Positions 5,123 to 25,094 of a stretch of 64,000 nucleotides of DNA are shown here, piece after piece. The DNA comes from a virus. Where the stretch lies: the IMG/VR virus record IMGVR_UViG_3300022752_000048, positions 1-64,000 of that record, one strand, 5' to 3'. The notes under the pieces were generated by a model. That model searched no databases. It had not been told where the DNA came from and was given only the letters and a program-made list of their open reading frames with translations. The position numbers and the translations under genes are program-made. How positions within the stretch are numbered: position 1 is the stretch's first letter; every line of letters starts with the position of its first letter.

Positions 5123-5131
5123 ATCGTACCA
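5123..5131 (-). promoter_or_regulatory. Extended -10-like element TGGTACGAT upstream of 4473..5096
   Basis: Matches the TGnTAnnAT pattern also seen at 18198 and 25191; followed by GGAG and the ATG. Confidence 0.35.
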
Positions 5132-5151
5132 TGTATCAAAGAGGAAAATAC

Positions 5152-5865
5152 ATGATTTACGCTGATTTTCATGACGTATATTTTAATCTTTTGGAAGAAC
5201 TTTATAGCCGACCACAATATGTTTCTGCGCCACGGGGCCAAAAGATACACGAACTTGTCGGTAAACAGTTTGTCATTAATCCTAATCTTGGGATAAAACT
5301 GGATTGGACAAAGACTGGCCTACCAGAACGCCAACCAATCTACGATAATTACTGTAAAAAAGAACTTGATTGGTATCTAAGCGGTAATCTTAGGGCAGAT
5401 TCTGCACCCGCCAAATTCTGGCAAACAATTGCCGACGAAAATGGAATTATTACTAGCAACTATGGATACCTTACCTTGTTTGCCAAGAAGTACCCCACCA
5501 GTGGGGGGGAGTGGCTTACTGGTTATGAATTTGTGGTAAAAACTCTTAAAAAGGACAGGGATAGTCGCCAAGCAATTATGCATTACGGCGAATCAAAAAA
5601 TTTTTGGGAAGGGAATAAGGATACGCCATGTTGCGCTAATAATCAGTTTATTATTCGTAATGACGAACTAGTTTGTATTATTAATTTTCGCAGTTGGGAT
5701 ATATTCTTGGGTGTGCCATACGACATTGAATTTATGCACTATCTACAAACTAAAATTGCAGATCAATTAAACGTAAAAACCGGCACTATTATTTGTAATG
5801 CCGGTAGTTTACATCTATACGAACGAGACTTCGAGAAAGCTAAAAAGGCGCTGCGGAAAGATTAA
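5152..5865 (+). CDS. Thymidylate synthase-family pyrimidine C5 (hydroxy)methylase, dCMP-type specificity residue
   Basis: DRDSRQA, DTPC (catalytic Cys), RSWDIFLGVPYD, GSLHLYE. Asp (GAC 5722-5724) sits where dUMP enzymes have Asn. Start set at ATG 5152 because GAGGA lies at 5141-5145. Confidence 0.85.
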   Translation: MIYADFHDVYFNLLEELYSRPQYVSAPRGQKIHELVGKQFVINPNLGIKLDWTKTGLPERQPIYDNYCKKELDWYLSGNLRADSAPAKFWQTIADENGIITSNYGYLTLFAKKYPTSGGEWLTGYEFVVKTLKKDRDSRQAIMHYGESKNFWEGNKDTPCCANNQFIIRNDELVCIINFRSWDIFLGVPYDIEFMHYLQTKIADQLNVKTGTIICNAGSLHLYERDFEKAKKALRKD

Positions 5866-8521: not shown

Positions 8522-9511
8522 TTAGCTCCATTGGTTCATCCCCTCCCGCTCGTAAATAACTTCTTCAACAGAACGCTGCAAAGAAATTTCTTCAAGTTCA
8601 TGGCGAATAATCGCTTCAATAATATGATCTGGCGTAAGTCCTTTACCGCGAAAGGCTTCTTTTTGAGAATCAGTCATTTTAATTTTACCAATGCCTTCTA
8701 CTAGCTGAAAAACTTCTTCATCTGATGGTGGTAAAACTTTGATAAGTTTATTAAAACGCCCAGGTCTATTGGTTAGTTGCGGTCCAAGCTGTTTAGCAAA
8801 GTTTGTTGTGCAAAGAATCATTGTTGGAACGCGGAAAAGGCCAGCAGTACCATCGAGAAAATTTAAACACGATGGATTAAATACCGTTGAGTTCGCAACT
8901 GAATCACGCTTGCCAAAATCTTCAATAACAATAATAATTCGTTTAACATCATCGGCATATGGTTTTAAAAAAATATGAGTAAGCATATTGAAGTTGATGT
9001 CTCCATCAACCTGAACTACCGCCGTACCTTCTGTTTTAAGAGCGTGTTCGGTGAAATGACGAATTAAAGCAGATTTTCCCATACCTGGTTCAGAATATAA
9101 CAAATACGCGCGTTTATTTTTTTTAAACTTGTTCCATAATAAATCGCTTTTTTCAAAAAAATTAGAAAAAAGTTTTTTTAAATATTTACTTGTGTTTGTC
9201 TCAAAAAATTTTTCTTCCGATTTAGGGATAGCAATCATTCCATGTTCTTGATGAAGATAATGAATTCCGCAACGAATTTGATGTTTTTCTTTAAATTCTT
9301 GTAGCGCTTCTTCCTTTTTCTTTTTAGCTTCTTCTAATTTTTGTTTTTCTTCGGCATTTTCTAAATCAATAGTTTCTTCTGAAATATATTTTGACTCAAT
9401 ATCATATGAAATAATTTTGTTATCTAGAATAACAAAATTATTTTCTATTTCAACTTCTGCGCCGACGGCGAGATCTTTAACATCTTTAACAATTAATTTT
9501 TGCAATTTCAT
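8522..9511 (-). CDS. AAA+ ATPase
   Basis: Walker A variant YLLYSEPGMGKS, Walker B IIVIEDF, LNFLDG, TTN sensor 1, RPGRF arginine finger. Confidence 0.85.
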   Translation of the reverse strand: MKLQKLIVKDVKDLAVGAEVEIENNFVILDNKIISYDIESKYISEETIDLENAEEKQKLEEAKKKKEEALQEFKEKHQIRCGIHYLHQEHGMIAIPKSEEKFFETNTSKYLKKLFSNFFEKSDLLWNKFKKNKRAYLLYSEPGMGKSALIRHFTEHALKTEGTAVVQVDGDINFNMLTHIFLKPYADDVKRIIIVIEDFGKRDSVANSTVFNPSCLNFLDGTAGLFRVPTMILCTTNFAKQLGPQLTNRPGRFNKLIKVLPPSDEEVFQLVEGIGKIKMTDSQKEAFRGKGLTPDHIIEAIIRHELEEISLQRSVEEVIYEREGMNQWS

Positions 9512-9526
9512 TGAACGCCCCCTAAA

Positions 9527-10120
9527 TTATTTTTTTTCTAATTTATTAATTCGATTAACTAAATCTTGTATTAAAGCTTCTTTTGCATCTGCCTCAGCCT
9601 TTTCTTTAGCTTTTCGCGCAGCAATTTTAGGTTCGTCTTCCGCACGTTTTTTAGCAAGCTCTGCTTCTTCCGCTGCTACTTTTGCTCTTTGTTCTTCTTC
9701 ATATTTTCTGTGATATTCTTCCATTTCAGATTCTTGCATTTCGCGTATTAATCTTCTTTCCTGCTGGAATCTTTCATTTTCCTGCTCCATTTCTTTTTGT
9801 CTTTTTTTATGAGCAGCTTGTAGTTTGGCGTTTTTTTCTTCCAATTGATTTTTAATATTTTCGATTTTTTCTTGTTCAAAATTTAATAATTGTTGTTCTT
9901 TGTCTTTAATAAATTCTGCAGAACTATCTAACGCAATCAAATACAGTTCATCCCATCTTTCTCGTCTAAGAGATTTTTTAACTCTTTCGACAGCGTCTGG
10001 ATTTGTAATAACAATTTCTTTATGCAATTCTTCACTAACTTTTGCAAATCCTCGATCATCTAAAATATGATGACCATCTTCAGACCAAAGAGGCTCACCT
10101 TTTTTAATGATAATTTTCAT
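9527..10120 (-). CDS. Coiled-coil hypothetical protein
   Basis: 197 aa with a long E/K/R/A-rich heptad region; GGAG SD. Confidence 0.55.
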   Translation of the reverse strand: MKIIIKKGEPLWSEDGHHILDDRGFAKVSEELHKEIVITNPDAVERVKKSLRRERWDELYLIALDSSAEFIKDKEQQLLNFEQEKIENIKNQLEEKNAKLQAAHKKRQKEMEQENERFQQERRLIREMQESEMEEYHRKYEEEQRAKVAAEEAELAKKRAEDEPKIAARKAKEKAEADAKEALIQDLVNRINKLEKK

Positions 10121-10144: not shown

Positions 10145-10879
10145 TTATATTTTTATAATATAATTCACATTTGCATTTAAAGGTCTAGTTTCAGATATAG
10201 ACCCACTATTATTAATAGTAACCGATGGCGTTGCTTCGTGAGTATGATTTACTGAACGGCCAGGTGAATCGTGATAATGGTTAGTGTTAATTCCACCAGT
10301 AGAATGCCCATGATTACCAATGCTAGCCCATCCGGAAGTTGTTCCGTGTGTTAATCTACCATTATCATAGTCATATGTCTGGTTTGTGCCAAACATACCA
10401 GCACTGGGGGCGGAACAAAAATGTGCATCAACGCGACCATGGGTGTGTGCTCCGCTTGGATTTACATAATGGCCATGGTCTGCACTAATATAACCAGTAT
10501 TTCCGTGCGTATGGTTTACATTTGGAATGTCCGATGTTGCTGATCGAGTATTGGCATGATCATGTCCGTGTGCGTTATCTTGTACACTTCCAACATTATC
10601 TCCAGTATTACCACCAGGATTTGAAGCCGTTCTGGCAGTTCTGTCTGGATCTCTAGCTATGCCGCCATCTTTACCTCTTAAAAACCTACCTCTCAAGTCT
10701 GGTAAATGGAAAGTGGAAGATCCATCTCCATTGCCCCAAGTTGTCCCAATGGCAGAGAATAAAGTGCTATATAAAGACCTGCTCACTGCAGAGCCATCAC
10801 ACAACAACCATCCAGCAGGAGCGGTCGGTCCTCCGAACGGTATAACAATTCCTGGTGGTAAAGAGTTAAAGTAAGTCAT
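10145..10879 (-). CDS. Tail collar-domain needle protein (triplet copy A)
   Basis: Collar motif PAGWLLCDGSAVSR..Y..LF.AIGT.WG.GDGSSTFHLPDLRGRF, seven HxH motifs, C-terminal ETRPLNANVNYIIKI. Confidence 0.9.
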   Translation of the reverse strand: MTYFNSLPPGIVIPFGGPTAPAGWLLCDGSAVSRSLYSTLFSAIGTTWGNGDGSSTFHLPDLRGRFLRGKDGGIARDPDRTARTASNPGGNTGDNVGSVQDNAHGHDHANTRSATSDIPNVNHTHGNTGYISADHGHYVNPSGAHTHGRVDAHFCSAPSAGMFGTNQTYDYDNGRLTHGTTSGWASIGNHGHSTGGINTNHYHDSPGRSVNHTHEATPSVTINNSGSISETRPLNANVNYIIKI

Positions 10880-11396
10880 ATTTTAATCACATAATTCATA
10901 TTTGCGTTAACTGGTCTTGTTTCGTTTCCGCCGTCTGTATTAATCGATAAGTTAAATGGTATTGTGTGGGTGTGCCACGCAGATACCGTATTTGTACCGT
11001 GATAATGGTTAGCAGAAACTCCGCCTGTTCCATGATCATGCCAGCCTTGAGATTCGGTAGCTTGCCATGTAGAATCTACACTATTGCTCCAATGTCCACC
11101 ATGATTACTGCCTTGGAATCCTCTATTCCATCCATTAAACTCAGAAAAATAAGCATCGTCTGAACCATGGTTATGATCGCCAGTAGGATTGACATAGTGT
11201 CCATGATCTGCGCTAATGTAGCCAGTATTATTATGCGAATGATCTACGCTTTCACCACCAGTAGAAACGCTGGCAGAGTTTGTGTGAGTATGAGAAGAAT
11301 ACGTATGGTCTTGTACACTTCCAACATTATCTCCAGTATTACCACCAGGATTTGAAGCCGTTCTGGCAGTTCTGTCTGGATCTCTAGCTATGCCGC
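10578..11396. repeat. 88-bp exact direct repeat (10578-10665 = 11309-11396)
   Basis: tcttgtacacttcc...ctctagctatgccgc occurs twice at an offset of 731 nt, equal to the gene period of the triplet. Confidence 0.9.
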
Positions 11397-11610
11397 TGTC
11401 TTTGCCACGCTCAAACCTTCCGCGCATATCTGGTAAATGGAAAGTGGAAGATCCATCACCGTTTCCAAAACTTGTTGATATTTTATTGAATAAATTTGCA
11501 TATACCGTTCTGCTAATAATTGAACCGTCACACAACAACCATCCAGCAGGAGCAGTTGTTCCTGCAAATGGCAAAATTGTTCCTGATGGTATTGAATTAA
11601 AAAAAGTCAT
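10876..11610 (-). CDS. Tail collar-domain needle protein (triplet copy B)
   Basis: Collar domain, seven HxH motifs, ETRPVNANMNYVIKI; 244 aa. Confidence 0.9.
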   Translation of the reverse strand: MTFFNSIPSGTILPFAGTTAPAGWLLCDGSIISRTVYANLFNKISTSFGNGDGSSTFHLPDMRGRFERGKDSGIARDPDRTARTASNPGGNTGDNVGSVQDHTYSSHTHTNSASVSTGGESVDHSHNNTGYISADHGHYVNPTGDHNHGSDDAYFSEFNGWNRGFQGSNHGGHWSNSVDSTWQATESQGWHDHGTGGVSANHYHGTNTVSAWHTHTIPFNLSINTDGGNETRPVNANMNYVIKI

Positions 11611-12341
11611 ATTTTAATAATATAGTTTAGGGTTACGTTTTTAGGTCTTGTTTCGTTTCCGCCATTAGCCGTTACCGATACCGAGGTCGTCACTGCATGC
11701 GAATGGCCAGCGCTTCTGCCACCAGTTCCATGTACATGGTTTGAATTAACTCCACCCGTTCCATGATCATGCCAGCCGGCATTACTATAGGTAATCCATC
11801 TATACCACGGTTGATTATCATAATCATTTCCATATCCCTCTCCTCGTAGACTCTGGTTTCCACCATTAGATTCTGCCCAATATGCATCGTTTTGCCAGTG
11901 ATAATGATCACCGTTGCCATTAGCCCAATGGCTATGGTCGTTAGAAACGTATCCAGTGCTGTGATAGTGATCTGCACTTTCGTTGCCAGTAGTGCCGCCA
12001 GACGTAGTTACGCCATGGTTATGGGTTTTATATCCATGGCCTTGCACACTTCCGACGTTATCTCCAGTATTGCCACCAGGATTTGAGGCTGTTCTTGTTG
12101 CGCGGTCGGGATCGCGACCTACTCCCCCATCTCTTCCCCTCAGAAACCGGCCTCTTAAATCTGGTAAGTGAAATGTAGTAGATCCATCTCCATTTCCCCA
12201 AGTCGTACCGATTGCAGCAAATAAATTGGGATAAATTGTTCGACTAATTGCAGAGCCATCACACAACAACCATCCTGATGGTGCTGCAGATTCGGAAGAT
12301 GGCAAAATTGAGCCTGTCGGCACAAAGTTGAATAACGTCAT
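11607..12341 (-). CDS. Tail collar-domain needle protein (triplet copy C)
   Basis: Collar domain, seven HxH motifs, ETRPKNVTLNYIIKI; 244 aa. Confidence 0.9.
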   Translation of the reverse strand: MTLFNFVPTGSILPSSESAAPSGWLLCDGSAISRTIYPNLFAAIGTTWGNGDGSTTFHLPDLRGRFLRGRDGGVGRDPDRATRTASNPGGNTGDNVGSVQGHGYKTHNHGVTTSGGTTGNESADHYHSTGYVSNDHSHWANGNGDHYHWQNDAYWAESNGGNQSLRGEGYGNDYDNQPWYRWITYSNAGWHDHGTGGVNSNHVHGTGGRSAGHSHAVTTSVSVTANGGNETRPKNVTLNYIIKI

Positions 12342-12673
12342 TTAATAAACCAGTTTCCATTAAGTGCCACTAATTCAAATGAAGAATATTGTGGCAAAAT
12401 TTGTGTTAACTGTCCATCAATTGTTTGTGAACCATTACCATCAATAGTTACATTACCAGTATTTATATTTTTAAAGAACAAAACGCAACCGTCTTTTCCG
12501 ACTGCAGAAGGCAAGACGACAGTTATGGCTGTTGCAGAGTTACATGCATAAAGATAATTTACTGGCAAATCAGTTAGAGTTGTACCAGATGTAAGAGTAA
12601 CAACATAGTATTGAAGGTAAAAGTCCTTCATAAATACTGGAGTTGGTTTGAATTTAGATGTATATGTTGCCAT
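12338..12673 (-). CDS. Stand-alone fibre adaptor domain (T4 gp9/gp10-like module)
   Basis: ITVVLPSA...FKNINTGNVTIDGNGSQTIDG...LVALNGNWFI; the same module ends 14995..18144, 23250..25094 and 25613..29317. Confidence 0.55.
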   Translation of the reverse strand: MATYTSKFKPTPVFMKDFYLQYYVVTLTSGTTLTDLPVNYLYACNSATAITVVLPSAVGKDGCVLFFKNINTGNVTIDGNGSQTIDGQLTQILPQYSSFELVALNGNWFIK

Positions 12674-12682
12674 AATAAATCC

Positions 12683-13450
12683 TTAAATTTTAATCAAATA
12701 TCTAACACCAACTGCATCTGGTCTTGTTTCGGCATCGCCAGCCCCTATTGTAATAGCAGGTGCCGCTACTGTGCTAGATGAAACTGTTTGAGCTGCGGCT
12801 GAACCAGTTGATAATGTTTGAGCGGCTGCTGTTGCGGACAATCCGTGAGTATGGTTATATGCAGAAGCACCACTTGAAGCTTCTGCAGTACCATAGCTAG
12901 ATGGAGTTGCAGCACCGCCGTTTCGAATTAAGCCGGTGGTACCATTGGAAAAATCTGCAGTAACTCTGTAAATACCTGCAGTGTGGGTATGATCTATACC
13001 TCCTGAAGTTGCTGAGCCGGAGACACTACTGCTGTTCATTGTTAATGAAATACTGCTGCTGTTCATTGTTAATGCACTAAGATTGCTCGTACCAGAAGTT
13101 GCTGTTAATCCATTTTTAGCAGTTTTGTGTGTTTGAAATTCCGCCAATCCAGTCGCAACACCTTGTGCGTTATTAGCTCCGCCGGAAGATCCTCGTAAAA
13201 ACGAACCCCTTAAATCTGGCAAACGGAATTTTCCCGCTGCTGGGCTTGCATATGTTGCACCAGTTAAAGGATTTTTAGCATTATTCCAAGTAGTTCCAAG
13301 TGCCGCTGATAATGACGGATATGCAGAAATATCAACTTCTGCCCCATTACATTCCAACCAACCTGCCGGCGTTGATGATCCGGCGTATGGCATAATCATT
13401 CCCGCTGGAAAATCGATAATTGTAAGTCCAGAAATTGCACTACTTGACAT
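12683..13450 (-). CDS. Tail collar-domain protein
   Basis: PAGWLECNG...FRLPDLRGSFLRG, two HxH motifs, ETRPDAVGVRYLIKI. Confidence 0.85.
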   Translation of the reverse strand: MSSSAISGLTIIDFPAGMIMPYAGSSTPAGWLECNGAEVDISAYPSLSAALGTTWNNAKNPLTGATYASPAAGKFRLPDLRGSFLRGSSGGANNAQGVATGLAEFQTHKTAKNGLTATSGTSNLSALTMNSSSISLTMNSSSVSGSATSGGIDHTHTAGIYRVTADFSNGTTGLIRNGGAATPSSYGTAEASSGASAYNHTHGLSATAAAQTLSTGSAAAQTVSSSTVAAPAITIGAGDAETRPDAVGVRYLIKI

Positions 13451-13453
13451 TTT

Positions 13454-14257
13454 CTATACCTTGATAATATAGTTAACGTTTATATTTAATGGCCTTGTTT
13501 CATTATCTCCATTACCAACTGTAACAGCTTGTGCTGGTGTTGTCCCTGATGCAGAAAAAGTTGCAGAACCCCCAAAATCCCAAGAGTGGGAATGGTCAAC
13601 ACTTTGACCTCCCGTTCCACCACCATGAGAGTGAGCTCCAGCACCACCCGTTTGAACCTGCGGATATGTGGCAAGGTTATTAGCATCGGAATTATAATCA
13701 AGACGGGTATTATACGGACCTAAACCAGGATTTGCTGTTACGTATTGCTGATGAGTATGATCACCTTCTCCGCTAATTCCATGATAATGGCCGGCTGATA
13801 CGCCACCAGAAGTTCCATTTAATTGATTTTTAAGCCCGTTTACTGTTGTAGTTACTGTTCCCGCTGTTGCAGACAATCCATTTTTAGCGGTAGCGTTTGT
13901 TTGGATACTCCCAACATTATTGCCCGTATTACCTCCAGTCGCAGCTGCGGTTCTAGTCGCTTTATCTGGATCTCGTCCTGCTGTTCCATCTACACCACGC
14001 ATAAATCGACCACGAAAATCTGGTAAATTAAATGTGGTGGAGTTATCGCCATAACCGTGCGATGTGCCAATCGCAGCAAATAAATTTGCGTATGTTGTTC
14101 TACTAATTGCTGAACCGTCGCATAATAGCCAACCTGGTGGCGCAGATGAGCCACCAAATGGCAAAATAACGCCTGATGGCATTAATGCAGAGATTGCGCC
14201 CGCAGCTTGGGACGAAGTTTGGTCTCCTAATGTTGCTAATAATGCTGCGTTTGCCAT
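13454..14257 (-). CDS. Tail collar-domain protein
   Basis: PPGWLLCDGSAISRTTYANLFAAIG...FNLPDFRGRF, four HxH motifs, ETRPLNINVNYIIKV. Confidence 0.88.
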   Translation of the reverse strand: MANAALLATLGDQTSSQAAGAISALMPSGVILPFGGSSAPPGWLLCDGSAISRTTYANLFAAIGTSHGYGDNSTTFNLPDFRGRFMRGVDGTAGRDPDKATRTAAATGGNTGNNVGSIQTNATAKNGLSATAGTVTTTVNGLKNQLNGTSGGVSAGHYHGISGEGDHTHQQYVTANPGLGPYNTRLDYNSDANNLATYPQVQTGGAGAHSHGGGTGGQSVDHSHSWDFGGSATFSASGTTPAQAVTVGNGDNETRPLNINVNYIIKV

Positions 14258-14266
14258 TTGTTCCTC

Positions 14267-14995
14267 TTATAACTTAATAATATAATTAAGAGCTAAAAAT
14301 GCTGGTGTTGTTTCCGTATCACCTGCACCTACAGTAATAGTTTGTGCTGATGCTGTTCCTGAAGACAAAGTTTGAGCAGCTGCTGTGCCTGTGGACAAAG
14401 TTTGCGCTGCGGCTGTCAATGATGGGGTTGCCGAGTGATTGTGAGAAGAACTTGGTAGAGTTGTGGCACCCCAGTTATAAAAATTTCCATCTGACCATCT
14501 ATCGTCAATCACTGTTTTTGCGCCTGAATTAGTGCTGCCTGTTGGACGCATGATTCCGTCCGTTGGAACTGTACTATTTCCTACAGATACGCTACCAGAA
14601 ACAGAACTGCTGTTCATTGTTAATGTTATAGAACTACTATTAAGTGTTAAGGCGCTGATGTTGCTGCTGTTAGCACTTGCCGTTAATCCATTCTTGGCAG
14701 TTTTTTGTCCGCCTTTTGCAGCTAAAGCTCCACCGGCTGGCGTATGTCCTGTCACTCCACCATAATTTGCTGTTCCGTTTGTTCCAGCTCCACGTGGATA
14801 AACACCGCGCATGTCGGGAACATTAAATGTTGTTGAATTATCACCAACTCCATATGTTGTGGAAATAACACCAAATAGTTTTGAATAGGTTGTGCGGCTT
14901 ATAGCACTGCCATCGCATAATGCCCAACCTTCTGGTGCTGCCGAGCCTGCAAACGGTAATACTGTTCCGGTTGGCGCAATGCCTAAAAATGCCAT
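14267..14995 (-). CDS. Tail collar-domain protein
   Basis: PEGWALCDG...FNVPDMRG, one HxH motif, ETTPAFLALNYIIKL. Start probably at MAFLGIAP (14995), overlapping the upstream stop. Confidence 0.85.
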   Translation of the reverse strand: MAFLGIAPTGTVLPFAGSAAPEGWALCDGSAISRTTYSKLFGVISTTYGVGDNSTTFNVPDMRGVYPRGAGTNGTANYGGVTGHTPAGGALAAKGGQKTAKNGLTASANSSNISALTLNSSSITLTMNSSSVSGSVSVGNSTVPTDGIMRPTGSTNSGAKTVIDDRWSDGNFYNWGATTLPSSSHNHSATPSLTAAAQTLSTGTAAAQTLSSGTASAQTITVGAGDTETTPAFLALNYIIKL

Positions 14996-17900
14996 TAGAA
15001 CATCTCCCAAGATGTGCCATTGCTAACTAAATGGCAAGATTCGTTTTGGAATAAGCCAACGGTTAAAGTTCCATCGATAGTTTCCGAACCATTTGCGTCA
15101 ATTGTCAAAACTTGGCCAGCATTTAGCCTACTTTTTACAACAAATATTTTACCGGACACTGTAGATGCTGCCGGCAAATTGATAGTGTATCCCACTGCAC
15201 CTGATGCTGAAACATAATAGTCCGAAGCATTAATTGTGTACGTTCCTGTTACTGCTTTATAATTTGCAACTATATTATTTCCGCCAATTGTTAACGGAAA
15301 GGTTGCGCCAACAGCTGGAGCGTTTAATGCAAAGTTAACGCTGGCATTAACAAATCCTGCAATATTTGGCAGAGTAATTTGTATTAAACCGGCAGCAGTG
15401 ATAGTAACGCTAAATCCAAGCGGCGGAACATCACCCATAGTTTGGTATGAAATGTTATAGTCAGTCCCGGCGCCGTTTTTAGCAAACTGGGCTTGAACAT
15501 AAAAACGATAATCGGTAGTTGCGTCAATAGTTACCCAGCCAGTTAATTCGCCGGCATCGTAAGCAGAGGCCACTTGGATTGTTGTTATTGCATTATTAGA
15601 TAAAGAAATCTGCGTTCTGGCATTAGCGCCACCAACAACTGAACCGCGCATGTTGAAAAATTCAAACGCAGTTGTAGAGCGTGCAACACCAAGAGGTTTA
15701 GATACTTGGCCAACCACTGTAGGATCTGATGTAGTAATTTTACCGGCAGTTGTTGGTGAAAGGAAATATGTTTCTCCAGCAGTTAAAGCGGGCGGTGCAG
15801 AAACAAAAACTTCTGCTGTTAAAGTAGACCCCGACAAAAATGGAGTCCATGAGGTTCCGTTACTACTAGATAATCCCCGGGAATTAGCTGGAATCCCTGC
15901 GGTTTGATTGTCCCAAAACAATCTAAATTGTCCTGCGCCTGATACAACATTATAGACAATAATTCCATAATATCTACCTGCAACAAGGCTGGCGGTTGTT
16001 GTAAAATTTAAAGAAACAATACTGACTACACTCTGAACTAACGTTGAAACATTAAGCGATTGTGTAACTGCAATAGGCGAACCTGTTGGAACACCCGTTC
16101 CGGTTTGATTTGTTAGCTCGTAAATTTGAACAACAGCAGTTCCGGTTATAGCTCCTGCAATTGCTTGGCACCTTAAATTAATTGAACTTGCATTGCCACC
16201 TACTGATGTTACAAAGGTAGAACCTGAATAAGTAGATGCTTGTCCAACCGTCCATGGATTTGTAAATGCATAGCCAGAAACAGCACTTCCGGCGCCTTCA
16301 ATTAAATTCGCTCCAACTGAGGCAACTTCGCCGCTTAAACAAATTAAGAATGTATTTGTGTCTACGATTTTGTATATTAATCCAGCCACTTCGGCTGTAT
16401 TTGTGGCATTGGCAATTGCATATGTATATGTAGATCCGTTTAAATATAACGGTCTACCAATATCTGCAGTGGTGAATCCATGTGAATTTTGAGTAACTTC
16501 TACAATTGTGTTGGTGGCCTCTGCCCATCGCAGTGTACCTGAACCATTTGTAATTAATGCTTGGCCATTTGTTCCATCTGCTGACGGCAATGTCCATGTA
16601 ACATTTGCGGCGATAGAATCTGCAGCTTTAAACGCAACTGAGTTTGTACCATTTGCTGCCAGCTCTCTAAATCTAAGCTCGCCACCATTTCCTGTTAATG
16701 TTCCGGTAGGACCAAGAATCAAAGAGGTTTCCGCAATACCGGGAAATCTATAAAGATGGCCAGAATCGCCTAGTACAAATTGATTATTAGCTGTAGCGTA
16801 AGAACCACCACCGGCTGCTGTTTTTCCGATGGTAACTGTACCGCTTAAAACAGAACCTGGAGTTAATGCTCCACCTGTATTGATGCAGACGTTGTTATTA
16901 CTATAACCGCCTAATAAAAGACCGGCACCAGAACCAATTGCAACGTTGCCAAATCCATCTGTAACGTTTCTTAAAGAAAAATAACCAACCGCAGTATTAT
17001 CTGTTCCGGTTGTCATTAATTCGGAAGATTGGTTACCAACCGCTGTATTGCTGTAGCCACTAGTAACAAGCCGCATCGAGCGCCAGCCGATTGCGGTATT
17101 GTCGGCTCCATCAGTAAGAGTGATAAGTGAGTTATAACCAACTGCTGTATTGTTTGATCCGGTTGTTAATGCAGTTAATGCATTAGTACCAAATGCTGTG
17201 TTTTGTACACCCAAAGTTACTGAATCTAACGATGCAACACCGATAGCTGTATTGTTTGTGCCAGTCATTGATGCATTAAACGCACCGGTCTCAAATGTTG
17301 ATCCAGTAGTAGGGTGTGCAATATCACCAATTTTCTTTTCAACTGCGGCAGAGCTTAGATAGTAAAGCGAGCCATCGGATTTAAAATAAATTCGTGTGTA
17401 GCCGGAAAGCGGAGACGAGGGTGTTACCGATTCATTTAAAAAATCAAAATATGCGGTGCCCGCAACGCCTGTGCCTTTTAATGTAAGAAAAGTGAATGCA
17501 CCAGAGCTTGCAGTGGTTGCACCAATCGAAGATGAGTTGATAGTTTTATTTGTTAAGTTTTCTGCACCGGCTAGAGTAGCTAATGTGCCAGAGGTGGGCA
17601 GAGTTAGACTTGTTGAAGCGGTTGTCGTTAATGTTATGTTATTAGAGCCATAACTGAATAAACCCGTATTGCTAGCGCCTGTACCACCTCTTGTCGGCGA
17701 TAGTTGGGCTTCACTTGTTAACGTATTAGTATTACTCCAATATGCAACATAATTAGACGTTCCTGTCCCTAACGTAACAGAGCCGTCTGCATTTGGAATA
17801 GTTAATGTTCTGGAAGTATTTCCGCTAATACCAGATAGTTGAAAATATAATTTTTTAGTCGGATCAGTTTCATCTGCAAAATAAACAGTGCTGTCTTGTA

Positions 17901-18144
17901 GAGCTGTAGATGTTAATGTTCCGCCTGTACCGGTTGTTAATGTTGGCGCCCATGCAGATGCGCCCGCGCCGTATTTAACGTAAAGCGTGCCGTTTGATCT
18001 TAAATATAAGGAGCCAAGCGGAGAGCTTAGTGACAACGTTGTAGGATCTGCAGATCCAGTTTCAATATACGCGGCTTCGCCAAGTTTTAACTTAGATTTT
18101 AACGCCTTGACATAATCGCCATTAAATATAACAGCGCCGCTCAT
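14995..18144 (-). CDS. Long tail fibre / branching fibre protein (1049 aa)
   Basis: NTAIG/NTAVG beta-roll repeats, VTWTLPSADGTNGQAL.TNGSGTL.W motif, C-terminal gp10-like module; N-terminus shared with 23250..25094. Confidence 0.8.
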   Translation of the reverse strand: MSGAVIFNGDYVKALKSKLKLGEAAYIETGSADPTTLSLSSPLGSLYLRSNGTLYVKYGAGASAWAPTLTTGTGGTLTSTALQDSTVYFADETDPTKKLYFQLSGISGNTSRTLTIPNADGSVTLGTGTSNYVAYWSNTNTLTSEAQLSPTRGGTGASNTGLFSYGSNNITLTTTASTSLTLPTSGTLATLAGAENLTNKTINSSSIGATTASSGAFTFLTLKGTGVAGTAYFDFLNESVTPSSPLSGYTRIYFKSDGSLYYLSSAAVEKKIGDIAHPTTGSTFETGAFNASMTGTNNTAIGVASLDSVTLGVQNTAFGTNALTALTTGSNNTAVGYNSLITLTDGADNTAIGWRSMRLVTSGYSNTAVGNQSSELMTTGTDNTAVGYFSLRNVTDGFGNVAIGSGAGLLLGGYSNNNVCINTGGALTPGSVLSGTVTIGKTAAGGGSYATANNQFVLGDSGHLYRFPGIAETSLILGPTGTLTGNGGELRFRELAANGTNSVAFKAADSIAANVTWTLPSADGTNGQALITNGSGTLRWAEATNTIVEVTQNSHGFTTADIGRPLYLNGSTYTYAIANATNTAEVAGLIYKIVDTNTFLICLSGEVASVGANLIEGAGSAVSGYAFTNPWTVGQASTYSGSTFVTSVGGNASSINLRCQAIAGAITGTAVVQIYELTNQTGTGVPTGSPIAVTQSLNVSTLVQSVVSIVSLNFTTTASLVAGRYYGIIVYNVVSGAGQFRLFWDNQTAGIPANSRGLSSSNGTSWTPFLSGSTLTAEVFVSAPPALTAGETYFLSPTTAGKITTSDPTVVGQVSKPLGVARSTTAFEFFNMRGSVVGGANARTQISLSNNAITTIQVASAYDAGELTGWVTIDATTDYRFYVQAQFAKNGAGTDYNISYQTMGDVPPLGFSVTITAAGLIQITLPNIAGFVNASVNFALNAPAVGATFPLTIGGNNIVANYKAVTGTYTINASDYYVSASGAVGYTINLPAASTVSGKIFVVKSRLNAGQVLTIDANGSETIDGTLTVGLFQNESCHLVSNGTSWEMF

Positions 18145-21800: not shown

Positions 21801-22520
21801 TTACTCATCGATAGATGGTATACCACATTTATTATATTTTGCATTAAATCCAGAATAAAACCAAGTCACACCCATAGTTCTAGGCGTTTCTTTTGTGCAT
21901 GCAAAATCAACAGCGGTATGCCAATAATTAGATGGAAACATAATTGCAGTGTTATATGAATAATAAAAATCTTTATAGATTTTCCACTGTTTTGGATCTT
22001 TTTGTTTTTCTAAATTTGCGGGGGTATCTGCTCTGATATATCGCTCTCCGCTTTCATGTTCGCAAAAACAAAATCTTGCAGATTTTTCTTGCGGTGTAAA
22101 ATCAAAAATAAATGCCCAATAAGTGTAACGGGCGTATATATTTCTTCCTTGTTTATCAAAGTCATATTCTGGCAAACGATCAACGTGCGCTATTAATTCA
22201 GAAGAGCGAGGTTCTTCCAGTCTTCTAAATGACATAACTGGTTTATGTGTCCATACATAATCATTTAAAATATTTGAACCCGTATCTAAAATATATTCTA
22301 AAGTTTTATCTTTAAAAAATTTGGGAACAATAACATTATCACCCACCCAATATCCTGATGATTTATCATATTCTGCCTGCAAAACCATTTGACGATAAAC
22401 TTCTGGATTTGGCAAAAAATCTTTAATAATAAAAAATGGAAAATTAACAGATGTATCTCTAGTAACAATCATAAAGATCTTTCTTATTAAATTGTTAATT
22501 AAAGATACTAGTGTTTTCAT
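21801..22520 (-). CDS. 2OG-Fe(II) oxygenase-like protein (DUF6445-like)
   Basis: IIKDFLPNP, HVD (HxD), YNTAIMFPSNYWH (distal His), PRTMGVTWF (Arg). Confidence 0.65.
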   Translation of the reverse strand: MKTLVSLINNLIRKIFMIVTRDTSVNFPFFIIKDFLPNPEVYRQMVLQAEYDKSSGYWVGDNVIVPKFFKDKTLEYILDTGSNILNDYVWTHKPVMSFRRLEEPRSSELIAHVDRLPEYDFDKQGRNIYARYTYWAFIFDFTPQEKSARFCFCEHESGERYIRADTPANLEKQKDPKQWKIYKDFYYSYNTAIMFPSNYWHTAVDFACTKETPRTMGVTWFYSGFNAKYNKCGIPSIDE

Positions 22521-23248
22521 AGTTTGATAATATAATTTACCGCTAAAAATGCGGGTGTTGTTTCGGTATCCCCTGAAATTGTAGGCGCTGCAGCGGTTGC
22601 GGTTAATGCACTTGAATTAAGTGAAACTGAAGATACAGAACCAGTGGCGTTAAATGTACTGTCATAACTTATGCTATGGCTGTGATCAGTATTAACACTT
22701 GCTGCAGATGTCAGAGCGCCCGAGCCGGCATCTTCCCAACACGGACCATATGCGCCAGCAGCATAATTAAGTCCTGAACGTCTTACGTTTCCAATAGAAT
22801 GGCCATGGCTCGCATTTGCTGACATACCGGTAGAAGTGCGATCAAATTGAGATCGATTTCCAGAAACAGATAATGCTATGTTTGAGGCAAGTGTTTGCCC
22901 TGCGGCTGTACCAGAAACTGTATTTGAACCACTATTTGCCAAACCATTCTTTGCAGTCTTTTGCCCGCCTTTAGTAGCTAAAGCACCCGCTGCTGGCGTG
23001 TGGCCAGTAACTCCACCATAGTTTGCCGTGCCATTTGTTCCAGCACCACGAGGATAAACACCACGTAAATCTGGTATGTTAAATGTTAAAGCGCCATCAC
23101 CGTTACCGTATGTAGTAGAAATTGCAGCAAACAGGCGAGCATAAGTCGTTCTGCTTACTGCAGAACCGTCACATAATAACCAGCCGTCTGGTGCTGTTGA
23201 TCCGGCAAACGTTAATAACGTTCCTGACGGAAATGGTAAGTACGCCAT
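22517..23248 (-). CDS. Tail collar-domain protein
   Basis: PDGWLLCDG...FNIPDLRG, two HxH motifs; near-identical GTNGTANYGGVTGHTP block and C-terminus to 14267..14995. Confidence 0.88.
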   Translation of the reverse strand: MAYLPFPSGTLLTFAGSTAPDGWLLCDGSAVSRTTYARLFAAISTTYGNGDGALTFNIPDLRGVYPRGAGTNGTANYGGVTGHTPAAGALATKGGQKTAKNGLANSGSNTVSGTAAGQTLASNIALSVSGNRSQFDRTSTGMSANASHGHSIGNVRRSGLNYAAGAYGPCWEDAGSGALTSAASVNTDHSHSISYDSTFNATGSVSSVSLNSSALTATAAAPTISGDTETTPAFLAVNYIIKL

Positions 23249-23249
23249 A

Positions 23250-25094
23250 TCAGAAAATACTCCAATCAGAAGAACCGCGCCAAACTAATTTAACTGATTC
23301 ATAATTTGATGTTAATGGCCATGAGTTTGCGCCATCAATTGTTATGCCGGCACCAGGATCAATTGTGACAATTCCGGCAGCAGAGACGCGTTTAATATAA
23401 ACAGTAAACCCTACATCGCTCGCTGTTAATGTTGGCAGATTTAAAGTGATTGCTGCGGTTGCAATAACAAAATGATTAGCTTTTGTCAAATTTGTATTTG
23501 ACGAGTAGGCGTTGTAGGCTGCTTTAAATCCACCGTTAATATCTAACAACGCTTGTGGAGAAGTCGTACCAATTCCAACATTTCCGGTTGTATCAATTTT
23601 TAATCTAGTGGAATTATTAGTTTCAAACAATAGGGAGAAATTGTCATTTGTACCAATAACTAAATCAGTGCTAAGAGTATTTCCTGTATGAGTTACAAAA
23701 CCAAATGGTGTAGTTCCGTATGAGAGCGACCCTGTTACAACCCATGAAGAAGATGTAGAATCCCAAGAAAGTTCAATCCACGAACCATTAATGTCCATGA
23801 TTAACGATTCATTTATTGCCAAATTATCAATTTTTTGTCCAGAGGCGGGATTAATGATTAAATTATTAAGACCCCATTTTTCTTTTACATCTGCAAATCT
23901 AATTCTTGCGTTTATAAATCCAGATGGCAAAGTTGCTGTTACTGCACCAAAAGTTGTATCAACAAAATAATTCACATTGTTAGCGGCTGTAAAAGAGGCG
24001 CTTTGATATATTGAATTTGCATATTGAGCAATGGTATTCCAATTTGTGCCATCAGAAAAATATAAAAAACCGCTTGAATATTTAATTGCGCCGCTGCCGG
24101 CAGTTGCAGCCGATGAAGTTACGTTGCCAACTTGCAAACCACCAGTAATTGCCAAGCTTACTACGTTTGCCGTACTTAGAGAGAGTATGCCTGTGAACGT
24201 TTGATTTCCGTCTAATGTTGCAATTGTAGACGATCTATCTGGCACTGTTAATGTTTTAGATGTTGTTAGTCCAGAATAATCTAGCGCAAATATATAGTTT
24301 GATGCATTTTTTAAATTTAAAACATTAGGAGTTGAATAAAGTCTTGTATATCCAACGGTTGGAGATGTTGGTGCGGATGACTCATTTAATAAATCAATGT
24401 AGGTAGTTCCGGCAGAACCAGTCCCCTTTACCGTTAAATAAGTGAAGGCGCCTGAGCTGGCTGTCGTCGAACCAATCGATGAAGAGTTAATGGTTTTATT
24501 GCTTAAATTTTCTGCACCAGATAATGTCGCCAATGTTCCGACGGTTGGGAGTGTGAGGCTTGTCGTACCTAATGTGGTAAACGTAATATTATTAGAGCCA
24601 TACGTAAGAGTACCCGCATTATTAACCCCCGTACCGCCTCTTGTAGAAGATAATTGAGCCTCGCCAGTTAGTGTATTAGTGGCGCTCCAATATGTTACGT
24701 ATCCCGTTGTGCTAGCGCCTAGCGGAATAGTGCCGCTTGTGTTTGGAATTGTTAAGGTTATTGAAGTATTATTAGTAATACCAGAAAGCTGGAAATATAG
24801 TTTTTTAGTCGGATCTATTTCATCGACAAAATAAACAGTGCTATCTTGCAAAGCAGTGCTTGTTAATGAACCGCCTGTACCGGTGATTAATGCTGGAGCC
24901 CACGAGGAGGGACTTGCGGCATATTTAACATAAAGTGTACCGTTTGATCTTAAATAAAGAGATCCGGTTGGGGAAGTTAACGATAGAGTCGTTGGATCTG
25001 CAGATCCAGTCTCAATATAAGCAGCTTCGCTTAGTTTTAACTTAGGCTTTAAGGCTTTTAAATAATCGCCATTAAATATAACAGCGCCGCTCAT
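23250..25094 (-). CDS. Tail fibre / branching fibre protein (614 aa)
   Basis: First ~250 aa paralogous to 14995..18144; internal and C-terminal gp10-like modules; GNVGIGTTSP fibre motif. Confidence 0.8.
   Translation of the reverse strand: MSGAVIFNGDYLKALKPKLKLSEAAYIETGSADPTTLSLTSPTGSLYLRSNGTLYVKYAASPSSWAPALITGTGGSLTSTALQDSTVYFVDEIDPTKKLYFQLSGITNNTSITLTIPNTSGTIPLGASTTGYVTYWSATNTLTGEAQLSSTRGGTGVNNAGTLTYGSNNITFTTLGTTSLTLPTVGTLATLSGAENLSNKTINSSSIGSTTASSGAFTYLTVKGTGSAGTTYIDLLNESSAPTSPTVGYTRLYSTPNVLNLKNASNYIFALDYSGLTTSKTLTVPDRSSTIATLDGNQTFTGILSLSTANVVSLAITGGLQVGNVTSSAATAGSGAIKYSSGFLYFSDGTNWNTIAQYANSIYQSASFTAANNVNYFVDTTFGAVTATLPSGFINARIRFADVKEKWGLNNLIINPASGQKIDNLAINESLIMDINGSWIELSWDSTSSSWVVTGSLSYGTTPFGFVTHTGNTLSTDLVIGTNDNFSLLFETNNSTRLKIDTTGNVGIGTTSPQALLDINGGFKAAYNAYSSNTNLTKANHFVIATAAITLNLPTLTASDVGFTVYIKRVSAAGIVTIDPGAGITIDGANSWPLTSNYESVKLVWRGSSDWSIF

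What the first reader, a model, noticed from the sequence alone, without database searches (positions are those of the whole stretch)
10145..12341. Three tandem needle genes of exactly 244 aa, each with seven HxH motifs: possible heterotrimeric receptor-binding needle
Seen: three 735-nt genes joined by ATGA overlaps. They have conserved collar domains and C-termini, four HxH motifs before and three after a divergent aromatic tip, and compensating indels that keep the total length identical. Established: the T4 gp37 tip is a homotrimer holding seven iron ions through HxH pairs. Inference: matched length, metal-site count and coupled 1:1:1 translation fit an A/B/C heterotrimer or combinatorial trimers with asymmetric tips. 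Three separate homotrimers of equal reach is the alternative.
Basis: partly seen in the sequence, partly recalled or inferred. Interest (0 to 1): 0.72.

Follow-up and report, generated by a model that had tools for sequence, protein, structure and literature searches.

The report
Three coupled phage fibre-tip needle genes
A large uncultured phage carries three old, always-together copies of a short metal-stapled tail-fibre tip (like the tip of phage T4's long fibre); they may assemble as one mixed three-chain needle, as reported for a virophage, but this could not be settled here.

Summary
Genes A (10145-10879), B (10876-11610) and C (11607-12341) on the minus strand are each 244 aa. They are joined by ATGA overlaps and each carries a Pfam Collar domain plus seven His-x-His motifs, four before and three after a divergent tip. 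All 14 motif histidines are invariant in 12 relatives.

They are stand-alone versions of the T4 gp37/gp12-type receptor-binding tip, in the fibre module of a roughly 165-kb metagenomic phage that has seven collar genes in all.

New here:
- The triplication is ancient. A, B and C each form a 100%-supported clade, and gene order C-B-A is kept in every relative whose DNA or contig membership could be read.
- Equal length is not kept: one lineage has 244/246/242 aa.
- In other close relatives the same slot holds a single 230-aa collar gene.
- The upstream, also ATGA-coupled, 111-aa gene folds as a gp9/gp10/TSP4 XD1-type domain. The same domain ends two long fibres that are also followed by collar genes, and it is fused to a collar in another phage. 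It is probably the socket for the tips.

An ABC heterotrimer (about 0.42) and three separate homotrimers (about 0.38) remain unresolved; no multimer prediction was available.

A published precedent exists (virophage DSLV2, J Virol 2025). This scan has already reported such triplets on other DNA, including one note that shares sequence words with gene B.

The parts
12338..12673 (-). 111-aa protein: free-standing XD1-type beta-sandwich with a conserved, disordered N-terminal tail of about 20 aa. Proposed socket or adaptor for the tips, and first gene of the ATGA-coupled run.
   Evidence: AF2 pLDDT 84. VIA Z 11.4 to the Solidus gp83 C-terminal domain, 10.3 to CBA120 TSP4 residues 78-175, 9.3 to T4 gp9, 8.7 to T4 gp10. 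82-86% identical in relatives. Has an AAGGA Shine-Dalgarno.
11607..12341 (-). Gene C: 244-aa collar-needle-tip protein with 7 HxH (spacings 18/11/10/45/11/11).
   Evidence: The C clade has 100/99 support. It carries a type-specific G17E at a Gly that is 98% conserved in the rest of the family.
10876..11610 (-). Gene B: 244-aa collar-needle-tip protein with 7 HxH (spacings 17/12/10/45/11/11).
   Evidence: The B clade has 100/100 support.
10145..10879 (-). Gene A: 244-aa collar-needle-tip protein with 7 HxH plus one overlapping HGH (spacings 17/12/10/45/11/11).
   Evidence: The A clade has 100/100 support.
11309..11396 (-). 88-nt tract of B identical to A (10578-10665); encodes about residues 72-101 at the collar-needle junction. 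A gene-conversion patch.
   Evidence: Longest identical run is 88 nt, at gene position 215 in both genes, against about 72-78% nucleotide identity in the rest of the collar.
10578..10665 (-). The matching 88-nt tract in gene A.
12683..15010 (-). Second collar triplet: F (14267-15010, probably starting at the ATG at 14995), D (13454-14257) and E (12683-13450). HxH counts are unmatched (1, 4, 2).
   Evidence: The counterparts in relative L086 have 4/4/3 HxH in different registers.
14995..18144 (-). Fibre A (1049 aa). Its last ~95 aa are the same XD1-type domain as the 111-aa protein, and it is followed directly by collar gene F.
   Evidence: BLASTP 40% over 72 aa, E 1e-9; HMM hit on aa 956-1049.
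22517..25094 (-). Fibre C (23250-25094, 614 aa, ending in the same domain) followed by the single collar gene G (22517-23248, 243 aa).
8522..10120 (-). Conserved downstream pair: a K/E-rich coiled-coil protein (9527-10120) and an AAA ATPase (8522-9511). Possible fibre-assembly helpers (inference only).
   Evidence: Weak AAA hits. The same pair follows the collar slot in L081, L082, L083 and L086.

Best explanation
A, B and C are three paralogous stand-alone receptor-binding fibre tips of the T4 gp37/gp12 kind. Each chain starts in a collar domain and runs out along a thin needle. On the way out it contributes four His-x-His pairs to metal sites on the three-fold axis. It then forms a 40-residue aromatic, Gly-rich head and runs back, contributing three more pairs. 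It ends with a strand (ETRP..NY.IKI) that re-enters the collar.

The tips have no shaft of their own. They probably plug non-covalently onto a trimer of the upstream 111-aa XD1-type protein. That protein is translated from the same message by stop-start (ATGA) coupling, with no Shine-Dalgarno before C, B or A.

The triplication is ancient and is fixed in order C-B-A. My leading reading is that one chain of each type co-assembles into a single pseudo-threefold ABC needle with seven mixed 6-His metal sites and an asymmetric head. On this reading the one socket carries one tip, just as it carries one homotrimer in relatives that have a single gene.

Shown: gene anatomy, family membership, orthology, synteny, the fold of the 111-aa protein.
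Inferred: metal binding, docking to the 111-aa protein, and above all the heterotrimeric assembly.
For: Family.
- Pfam Collar at E about 1e-23.
- T4 gp12 matches both the collar and the C-terminal strand.
- The A-1(L) gp34 arm matches through the HxH region.
- Foldseek top hits are 8KEC, gp12 and the gp37 tip 2XGF.
- The seven gp37 irons on HxH pairs are described in PMC11705849.

Triplet as a unit.
- A, B and C are each clades at 100% support, and ABC together is monophyletic at 100/100.
- They co-occur in the window, L081/164-kb contig, ENA 12.8-kb, Logan 6.1-kb and 2.2-kb, ENA 2.2-kb and JGI 11-kb contigs. The first three hold all three types; the other four are cut by a contig end and show two adjacent types.
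- The slot after the 111-aa gene holds 1 or 3 collar genes and was never seen with 2.
- All 14 motif His are invariant.
- The spacing across the head is 45 residues in all three types of this window, although head identity between types is only 27-31%.
- The heads are as conserved between lineages (65-75%) as the collar, so they are not hypervariable.
- C alone carries G17E at a 98%-conserved Gly, a symmetry-breaking change.
- C, B and A have no Shine-Dalgarno, whereas the flanking genes do.

Socket.
- XD1 fold with Z 8.7-11.4.
- The same domain ends fibres A and C, and both are followed by collar genes.
- In 13 of 14 ORFs that end in this domain, a collar gene follows within -15 to +10 nt; a natural fusion of domain and collar exists in L020.

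Precedent. Three consecutive collar proteins of virophage DSLV2 co-purify as a heterotrimer and show the same positional orthology (PMC12724248).
Against: - No direct test of assembly was possible. The AF2 monomer model is confident only in the collar (pLDDT 56 overall).
- All solved collar/needle fibres (gp12, gp37, A-1(L) gp34) are homotrimers.
- Close relatives have a single 230-aa collar gene in the same slot, which must homotrimerise.
- Site spacings drift independently per type, with no matching change in the partners. C has site 2 shifted by one residue. In the L081 lineage B has +2 between sites 2 and 3 and A has -2 in the head. One B-type protein has +8.
- Paralogues from the same genome are no more alike in needle and head than paralogues from different genomes (0.412 vs 0.400), so there is no co-variation signal.
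- The neighbouring triplet F/D/E has HxH motifs in unmatched registers. Tandem collar genes in this same phage family therefore need not share metal sites.
- ATGA junctions are copied automatically by tandem duplication.
Confidence: 0.42

Rival explanations
1. Three separate homotrimers. A3, B3 and C3 are alternative receptor-binding tips that compete for the same socket (or use different ones). Each virion then carries a mixture of specificities. This is an ordinary multi-RBP arrangement produced by tandem duplication.
For: - Every solved relative is a homotrimer.
- The same slot is filled by a single gene in L082, L083 and L086.
- Indels drift independently per type, and lengths are 244/246/242 in L081.
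- There is no co-variation between paralogues of one genome.
- The neighbouring triplet F/D/E has unmatched HxH registers and mosaic middles, typical of independent swappable tips.
- The phage has seven collar genes and three long fibres, that is, many receptor-binding proteins.
- Tandem collar arrays of 2 and 4 also exist in other viral contigs.
Against: - Exactly three paralogues, matching the oligomer order, are retained together in every lineage seen, and the slot is never seen with two.
- The heads are frozen rather than fast-evolving.
- The three share near-identical N-termini and 70-78% identical collars, with a gene-conversion patch, but there is only one socket gene. They would compete for it, and nothing obvious prevents mixing.
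- The only experimentally studied collar triplet was reported to be a heterotrimer.
Confidence: 0.38
2. Promiscuous mixing. The three chains co-assemble statistically into up to ten trimer species (AAA, AAB, ... ABC), giving combinatorial heads.
For: All three types have the same seven sites in the same order, near-identical collars and co-translation from one message. Random mixing is the default outcome for recently duplicated homomers (general knowledge of paralogue interference).
Against: The duplication is old. Each type has strongly conserved type-specific segments (residues 101-120 and the head), which argues that some assembly or binding specificity has been selected. No such system is known.
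Confidence: 0.12
3. The proteins are not virion tips at all. They could be, for example, secreted or cell-directed lectin-like proteins, like the cellular MdpB-type collar triplets.
For: JGI names the relatives 'microcystin-dependent protein'. Earlier scan notes describe non-viral collar triplets in many bacteria.
Against: The genes sit inside a tail-fibre module, between long fibres and tube-like and virion proteins. The best PHROG hits are tail fibre and tail collar families. The partner domain is a fibre/adaptor fold. They have no signal peptides (sequence).
Confidence: 0.05

Closest known systems
T4 gp37 long-tail-fibre tip (PDB 2XGF)
   Same: Collar, then a needle stapled by a ladder of seven HxH sites (out and back), then a head. 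Foldseek E 7e-5. The seven-iron description is cited in PMC11705849.
   Different: gp37 is the C-terminal ~216 aa of a 1026-aa fibre and is a homotrimer from a single gene. Here the tip is a free 244-aa protein present as three fixed paralogues. There is no sequence-level hit to gp37 (E > 1).
T4 gp12 short tail fibre receptor-binding domain (1OCY, 1PDI, 5IV5)
   Same: Best sequence match. The collar (residues 5-110) and the C-terminal strand GNETRP.N..NYIIK both align.
   Different: The aligned part of gp12 shows one His-x-His (SYHKH); from recall, gp12 has a single zinc site in a compact head. Here there are seven sites along a needle. gp12 also carries its own shaft.
Cyanophage A-1(L) long tail fibre gp34 arm domain (8KEC; PMC10966104)
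   Same: Closest solved homologue through the HxH region (E 1.9e-8). It is also the Foldseek top hit.
   Different: gp34 has an N-terminal shoulder domain (residues 1-155) that anchors it to the baseplate, and it is a homotrimer. A, B and C have no anchor domain.
Tripartite tail proteins of virophage DSLV2 (Chu et al., J Virol 2025, PMC12724248)
   Same: Three consecutive, co-oriented collar-only proteins described as gp37-tip-like. Positional orthology holds across relatives. A heterotrimer is reported from AF3 and co-purification.
   Different: The host is a virophage with no tail or socket protein. The chains are much shorter (58 kDa for the trimer). No HxH ladder is discussed ('HxH' and 'histidine' have 0 occurrences). 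Sequence relatedness to A, B and C was not tested here.
XD1 domains of T4 gp9/gp10 and CBA120 TSP4 (PMC8825819), for the 111-aa partner
   Same: The beta-sandwich fold matches, with Z 8.7-10.3. These domains occur in trimeric adaptor proteins that carry other fibres or spikes.
   Different: In TSP4 and gp10 the partner-binding modules are XD2 and XD3, and XD1 is regarded as a spacer. Here the domain is either free-standing or at the very C-terminus of a fibre. Its docking role is inferred only from gene adjacency and one natural fusion.

Membership tests
Pfam Collar (PF07484) proteins | Match to the Collar HMM above the gathering score | tested here: met
   80.8-88.6 bits against a cutoff of 24, covering residues 10-67 of all three proteins.
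gp37/gp12-type receptor-binding tip | The chain leaves the collar and returns to it (N-terminal collar plus C-terminal returning strand) | tested here: met
   T4 gp12 aligns to residues 6-111 and again to 228-244 (GNETRP.N..NY.IK).
gp37/gp12-type receptor-binding tip | His-x-His motifs positioned to build axial 6-His metal sites (seven in gp37) | tested here: met
   Seven HxH per chain, four before and three after the head. All 14 His are invariant in 12 sequences. P <= 5e-5 against shuffles. This is sequence evidence only.
gp37/gp12-type receptor-binding tip | Bound Fe/Zn ions | not testable with these tools
   Needs metal analysis or a solved structure.
gp37/gp12-type receptor-binding tip | Intertwined trimeric needle fold | tested here: inconclusive
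   The AF2 monomer is confident only in the collar (pLDDT < 50 for most of residues 69-235). Foldseek lists 8KEC, 5IV5 and 2XGF first, but with TM 0.25-0.29.
gp37/gp12-type receptor-binding tip | The tip is the C-terminal part of a long fibre polypeptide | tested here: not met
   The proteins begin 5-9 residues before the collar. Fused forms exist in other phages (L048, L020).
DSLV2-type tripartite (heterotrimeric) tail proteins | Three consecutive co-oriented collar genes with positional orthology across relatives | tested here: met
   Order C-B-A is read directly in the window and in L081, and the three types co-occur on the ENA 12.8-kb contig. Each type is a clade at 100% support.
DSLV2-type tripartite (heterotrimeric) tail proteins | The three chains form one 1:1:1 complex | not testable with these tools
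   No multimer predictor was available. The covariation proxy was negative but weak.
DSLV2-type tripartite (heterotrimeric) tail proteins | Sequence relatedness to the DSLV2 proteins | not tested
XD1 (gp9/gp10/TSP4) adaptor-module fold, for the 111-aa protein | Beta-sandwich superposable on the XD1 domains | tested here: met
   Z 10.3 with rmsd 2.2 A over 88 residues to TSP4 78-175. Z 9.3 to gp9 66-163. Z 8.7 to gp10 48-146. The next unrelated row is Z 5.2 or lower. The domain assignment follows PMC8825819.

The most novel reading that the evidence does not exclude
A tailed phage builds an obligate A-B-C heterotrimeric needle with seven metal sites. The result is a pseudo-threefold, asymmetric receptor-binding head that snaps onto a separate XD1-type socket protein. 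This arrangement evolved from the single-gene homotrimer still present in sister phages. It would be the first heterotrimeric fibre tip in a caudovirus, with a natural before-and-after pair (single gene versus triplet) for studying how a homotrimer becomes a heterotrimer.
Probability: 0.4. Interest if true: 0.72.

Novelty: new variant of a known kind. Interest (0 to 1): 0.5.

Why it matters
If the three chains form one needle, phage receptor-binding tips need not be three-fold symmetric. An asymmetric head could read a single, non-symmetric receptor. Sister phages with one gene in the same slot would then give a clean natural experiment on how homomers turn into obligate heteromers.

If instead they are three homotrimers sharing one socket, the locus shows protein-level assortment of host specificities on one virion.

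Either way, the split 'socket domain + detachable collar tip' grammar found here is a practical annotation rule for fibre modules of uncultured phages. It states that a fibre gene ending in an XD1-type domain is followed by its tip gene.

Tried and rejected
- **The look-up of encoding contigs.** Contexts of the Logan and ENA relatives could only be inferred from shared contig lengths in the listing of cluster members.
- **Megablast against phage records.** No match for the region, so the phage is not among deposited phages.
- **The search for related loci with protein B alone.** Found nothing. With the whole-family alignment it returned only generic collar loci, because the patterns came from the collar. 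A C-type needle/head alignment found only L081.
- **AF2 of B as a monomer.** It gave no needle.
- **Covariation test.** Same-genome versus cross-genome paralogue identity showed no excess. An apparent parallel Y-to-W change in all three paralogues of the L081 lineage did not hold up in the other lineages.
- **Promoter and terminator scan.** Counts were within the range of shuffled controls: 15 promoter-like sites against 15.9 expected, and 6 terminator-like sites against 4.5 (sd 1.7).
- **Pfam on neighbours.** Nothing for the 239-, 112-, 182-, 125- and 98-aa neighbours.
- **Rejected argument: equal length requires a heterotrimer.** Lengths differ in one lineage. The compensating indels lie close together, or at the two collar-needle junctions of the same chain, so closure within one chain explains them.
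Full report
**1. Observation**

The window is the first 64 kb of a 79,376-bp IMG/VR viral contig estimated to be about 48% complete. On the minus strand, ORFs 11607-12341 (C), 10876-11610 (B) and 10145-10879 (A) are each 244 aa.
- Each junction is an ATGA stop/start overlap. The 111-aa gene upstream (12338-12673) overlaps C in the same way.
- All three proteins match Pfam Collar at 81-89 bits.
- B and C carry seven His-x-His motifs. A carries the same seven plus one overlapping HGH.
- First-His spacings are 17/12/10/45/11/11 in A and B, and 18/11/10/45/11/11 in C.
- Shuffled sequences give about 1.0-1.25 motifs, with P <= 5e-5 for the observed count.
- In an alignment with nine relatives, all 14 motif histidines are invariant.

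Two additions apply. The contig holds seven collar genes in all, including a second triplet F/D/E at 12683-15010 and a single gene G at 22517-23248. A and B also share an 88-nt identical tract at the collar-needle junction, which is a gene-conversion patch.

**2. What the proteins are**

By sequence, the closest solved structures are the T4 short tail fibre gp12 and the arm of cyanophage A-1(L) long tail fibre gp34.
- gp12 aligns both to the collar (residues 5-110) and to the C-terminal strand GNETRP.N..NYIIK.
- gp34 aligns on through the HxH region. Its authors describe that arm as gp37-like and homotrimeric.
- An AF2 monomer model of B is confident only in the collar. This is expected for an intertwined, metal-dependent trimer.
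- Foldseek nevertheless ranks 8KEC, gp12 and the gp37 tip 2XGF first.
- The seven gp37 iron ions on HxH pairs are documented in the literature held.

A, B and C are thus miniature gp37-type tips: collar, four sites out, a 40-residue aromatic/Gly-rich head, three sites back, and a closing strand. Unlike gp37, gp12 or gp34, they have no shaft or anchor domain.

**3. Relatives**

Protein searches found orthologues of each of the three types. Cluster membership shows which ones share a contig.
- Three contigs hold all three types: the window (244/244/244), the 164-kb contig represented by locus L081 (244/246/242), and the ENA 12.8-kb contig (244/244/244).
- Four short contigs hold two types and are cut by a contig end.
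- L081 shows the same order as the window: 111-aa gene, C, B, A, coiled-coil gene, AAA ATPase. The ATGA overlaps are kept.
- A maximum-likelihood tree places A, B and C each in a clade with 100% support. ABC together is monophyletic at 100/100 against the other collar proteins of these phages.

The triplication therefore predates the divergence of these lineages, and positional orthology is strict.

Between lineages the head is as conserved (65-75%) as the collar. Between types it is only 27-31% identical. The heads are three fixed, different structures, not fast-evolving host-range loops.

Sister phages with 81-82% identical flanking genes (L082 and its copies, L083, L086) have a single 230-aa collar gene with five HxH in the same slot. 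In every relative read, the slot holds one gene or three, never two.

**4. The partner**

The 111-aa protein is 82-86% identical in relatives. With a 12-row alignment it folds confidently (pLDDT 84; residues 20-111 mostly above 88) into a beta-sandwich.
- VIA-align gives Z 11.4 to the C-terminal domain of the Solidus tailspike, 10.3 to CBA120 TSP4 residues 78-175, 9.3 to T4 gp9 and 8.7 to T4 gp10. There is then a gap down to Z 5.2.
- According to the TSP4 paper, that TSP4 segment is the XD1 module, shared by gp9, gp10, CpaA and StcE. These are the same proteins my search found.
- The last ~95 residues of fibre A (1049 aa) and fibre C (614 aa) are homologous to the 111-aa protein (E 1e-9 and 2e-4). 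Both fibres are followed directly by collar genes. Fibre B lacks the domain and is not.
- With an HMM of the domain, 13 of 14 ORFs in the held loci that end in it are followed by a collar gene at -15 to +10 nt. These include independent phages L002 and L006.
- L020 encodes a natural fusion, with the domain at residues 56-140 and the collar starting at about 148.

I infer that the collar tips dock on the trimeric XD1-type domain. The 111-aa protein would then be a free socket whose invariant N-terminal ~20 residues attach it elsewhere. This is inference from adjacency and one natural (Rosetta-stone) fusion. In TSP4 and gp10 the known docking modules are XD2 and XD3, not XD1.

**5. One heterotrimer or three homotrimers?**

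For a heterotrimer:
- A precedent exists. Chu et al. (J Virol 2025) report that three consecutive collar proteins of virophage DSLV2 co-purify through one tagged chain, run as a ~55-kDa native species, are favoured as a heterotrimer by AF3, and show positional orthology.
- The number of retained paralogues equals the oligomer order, and the three are never separated.
- The slot holds one or three genes for one socket gene.
- The seven sites are kept in all three types.
- The head spacing is identical (45) despite 27-31% identity.
- The heads are frozen.
- C, B and A lack Shine-Dalgarno sequences, while the first gene of the run and the next gene downstream have them.
- C alone carries a radical G17E change at a Gly that is 98% conserved in 47 other family members.
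- In other viral contigs, triplets are the commonest multi-copy collar array (L007 195/195/193, L018 378/380/375, L070, L071).

Against a heterotrimer:
- All solved relatives are homotrimers.
- The single-gene state in sister phages shows that the socket accepts a homotrimer.
- Spacings drift independently. C site 2 is shifted by one residue in all lineages. In L081, B has +2 and A has -2, with no matching change in the partners. One B-type protein has +8.
- Same-genome paralogues are no more alike in needle and head than cross-genome ones (0.412 vs 0.400).
- The neighbouring F/D/E triplet has 1/4/2 HxH here and 4/4/3 in different registers in L086. It is probably three separate trimers with swappable middles.
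- Tandem duplication copies ATGA junctions for free.

The 'equal length' argument fails as stated. Lengths differ in one lineage. The compensating indels lie either within 12-25 residues of each other or at the two collar-needle junctions of one chain, so hairpin closure within a chain explains them.

My estimates are: ABC heterotrimer 0.42, three homotrimers 0.38, statistical mixing 0.12, other 0.05-0.08.

**6. Comparison and novelty**

- The fold family (collar plus HxH needle) is known.
- Triplets of collar genes proposed to be heterotrimers are published for a virophage.
- This scan has reported them repeatedly on other DNA: many bacterial cassettes, and a note on 'two tandem triplets of collar-needle genes' in a large freshwater phage whose sequence shares short words with gene B.

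What is specific here:
- a full seven-site needle version in a tailed phage;
- a one-gene versus three-gene contrast in the same slot of sister phages;
- the split socket-plus-tip architecture, with an XD1-type partner.

I class it as a new variant of a known kind, of moderate interest. The decisive experiments are simple: multimer prediction, co-expression pull-down and native MS.

**Limits**

No multimer prediction was available. The host is unknown.

Noticed in passing
window 8522-10120 (-): A K/E-rich coiled-coil protein and an AAA ATPase follow the collar slot in every relative seen. The coiled-coil protein has a conserved N-terminal 60 aa and a coil length varying from 125 to 205 aa. The ATPase is 81-86% identical. 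They could be fibre-assembly helpers; from recall, T4 uses a coiled-coil chaperone, gp57A, for gp12 and gp37.
   Followed up: partly
window 14995-15010 (-): Collar gene F probably starts at the ATG at 14995, which overlaps the fibre A stop as TAATG and has GGGAG 8 nt upstream. That makes it 242 aa rather than the 247 aa listed from the TTG start.
   Followed up: partly
L020:8306-9235 (+): A natural single-chain fusion of the XD1-type domain (residues 56-140) to a collar and head (from residue 148) in an unrelated viral contig. It is the unsplit form of the 111-aa-plus-tip pair.
   Followed up: partly
L002:3915-4700 (+): A 261-aa protein that begins with a collar-like segment and ends in the XD1-type domain. 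It sits between long collar proteins that have 5-14 HxH motifs and long AAAQ/TGTN repeat runs. This is another way of chaining these modules.
   Followed up: no
L007:9881-11633 (+); L018:3909-7326 (+): Independent viral triplets of near-equal-length collar proteins (195/195/193 aa and 378/380/375 aa) with HxH at matching positions. In L007 the reading frames overlap at both junctions.
   Followed up: partly
window 21801-22520 (-): A 239-aa gene directly after collar gene G, overlapping its stop, has no Pfam hit. Its function is unknown.
   Followed up: partly
window 5131-5865 (+): A thymidylate-synthase-family gene (PF00303, E 2e-23) sits on the opposite strand among tail genes. An earlier first-reader note had already flagged it.
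   Followed up: no
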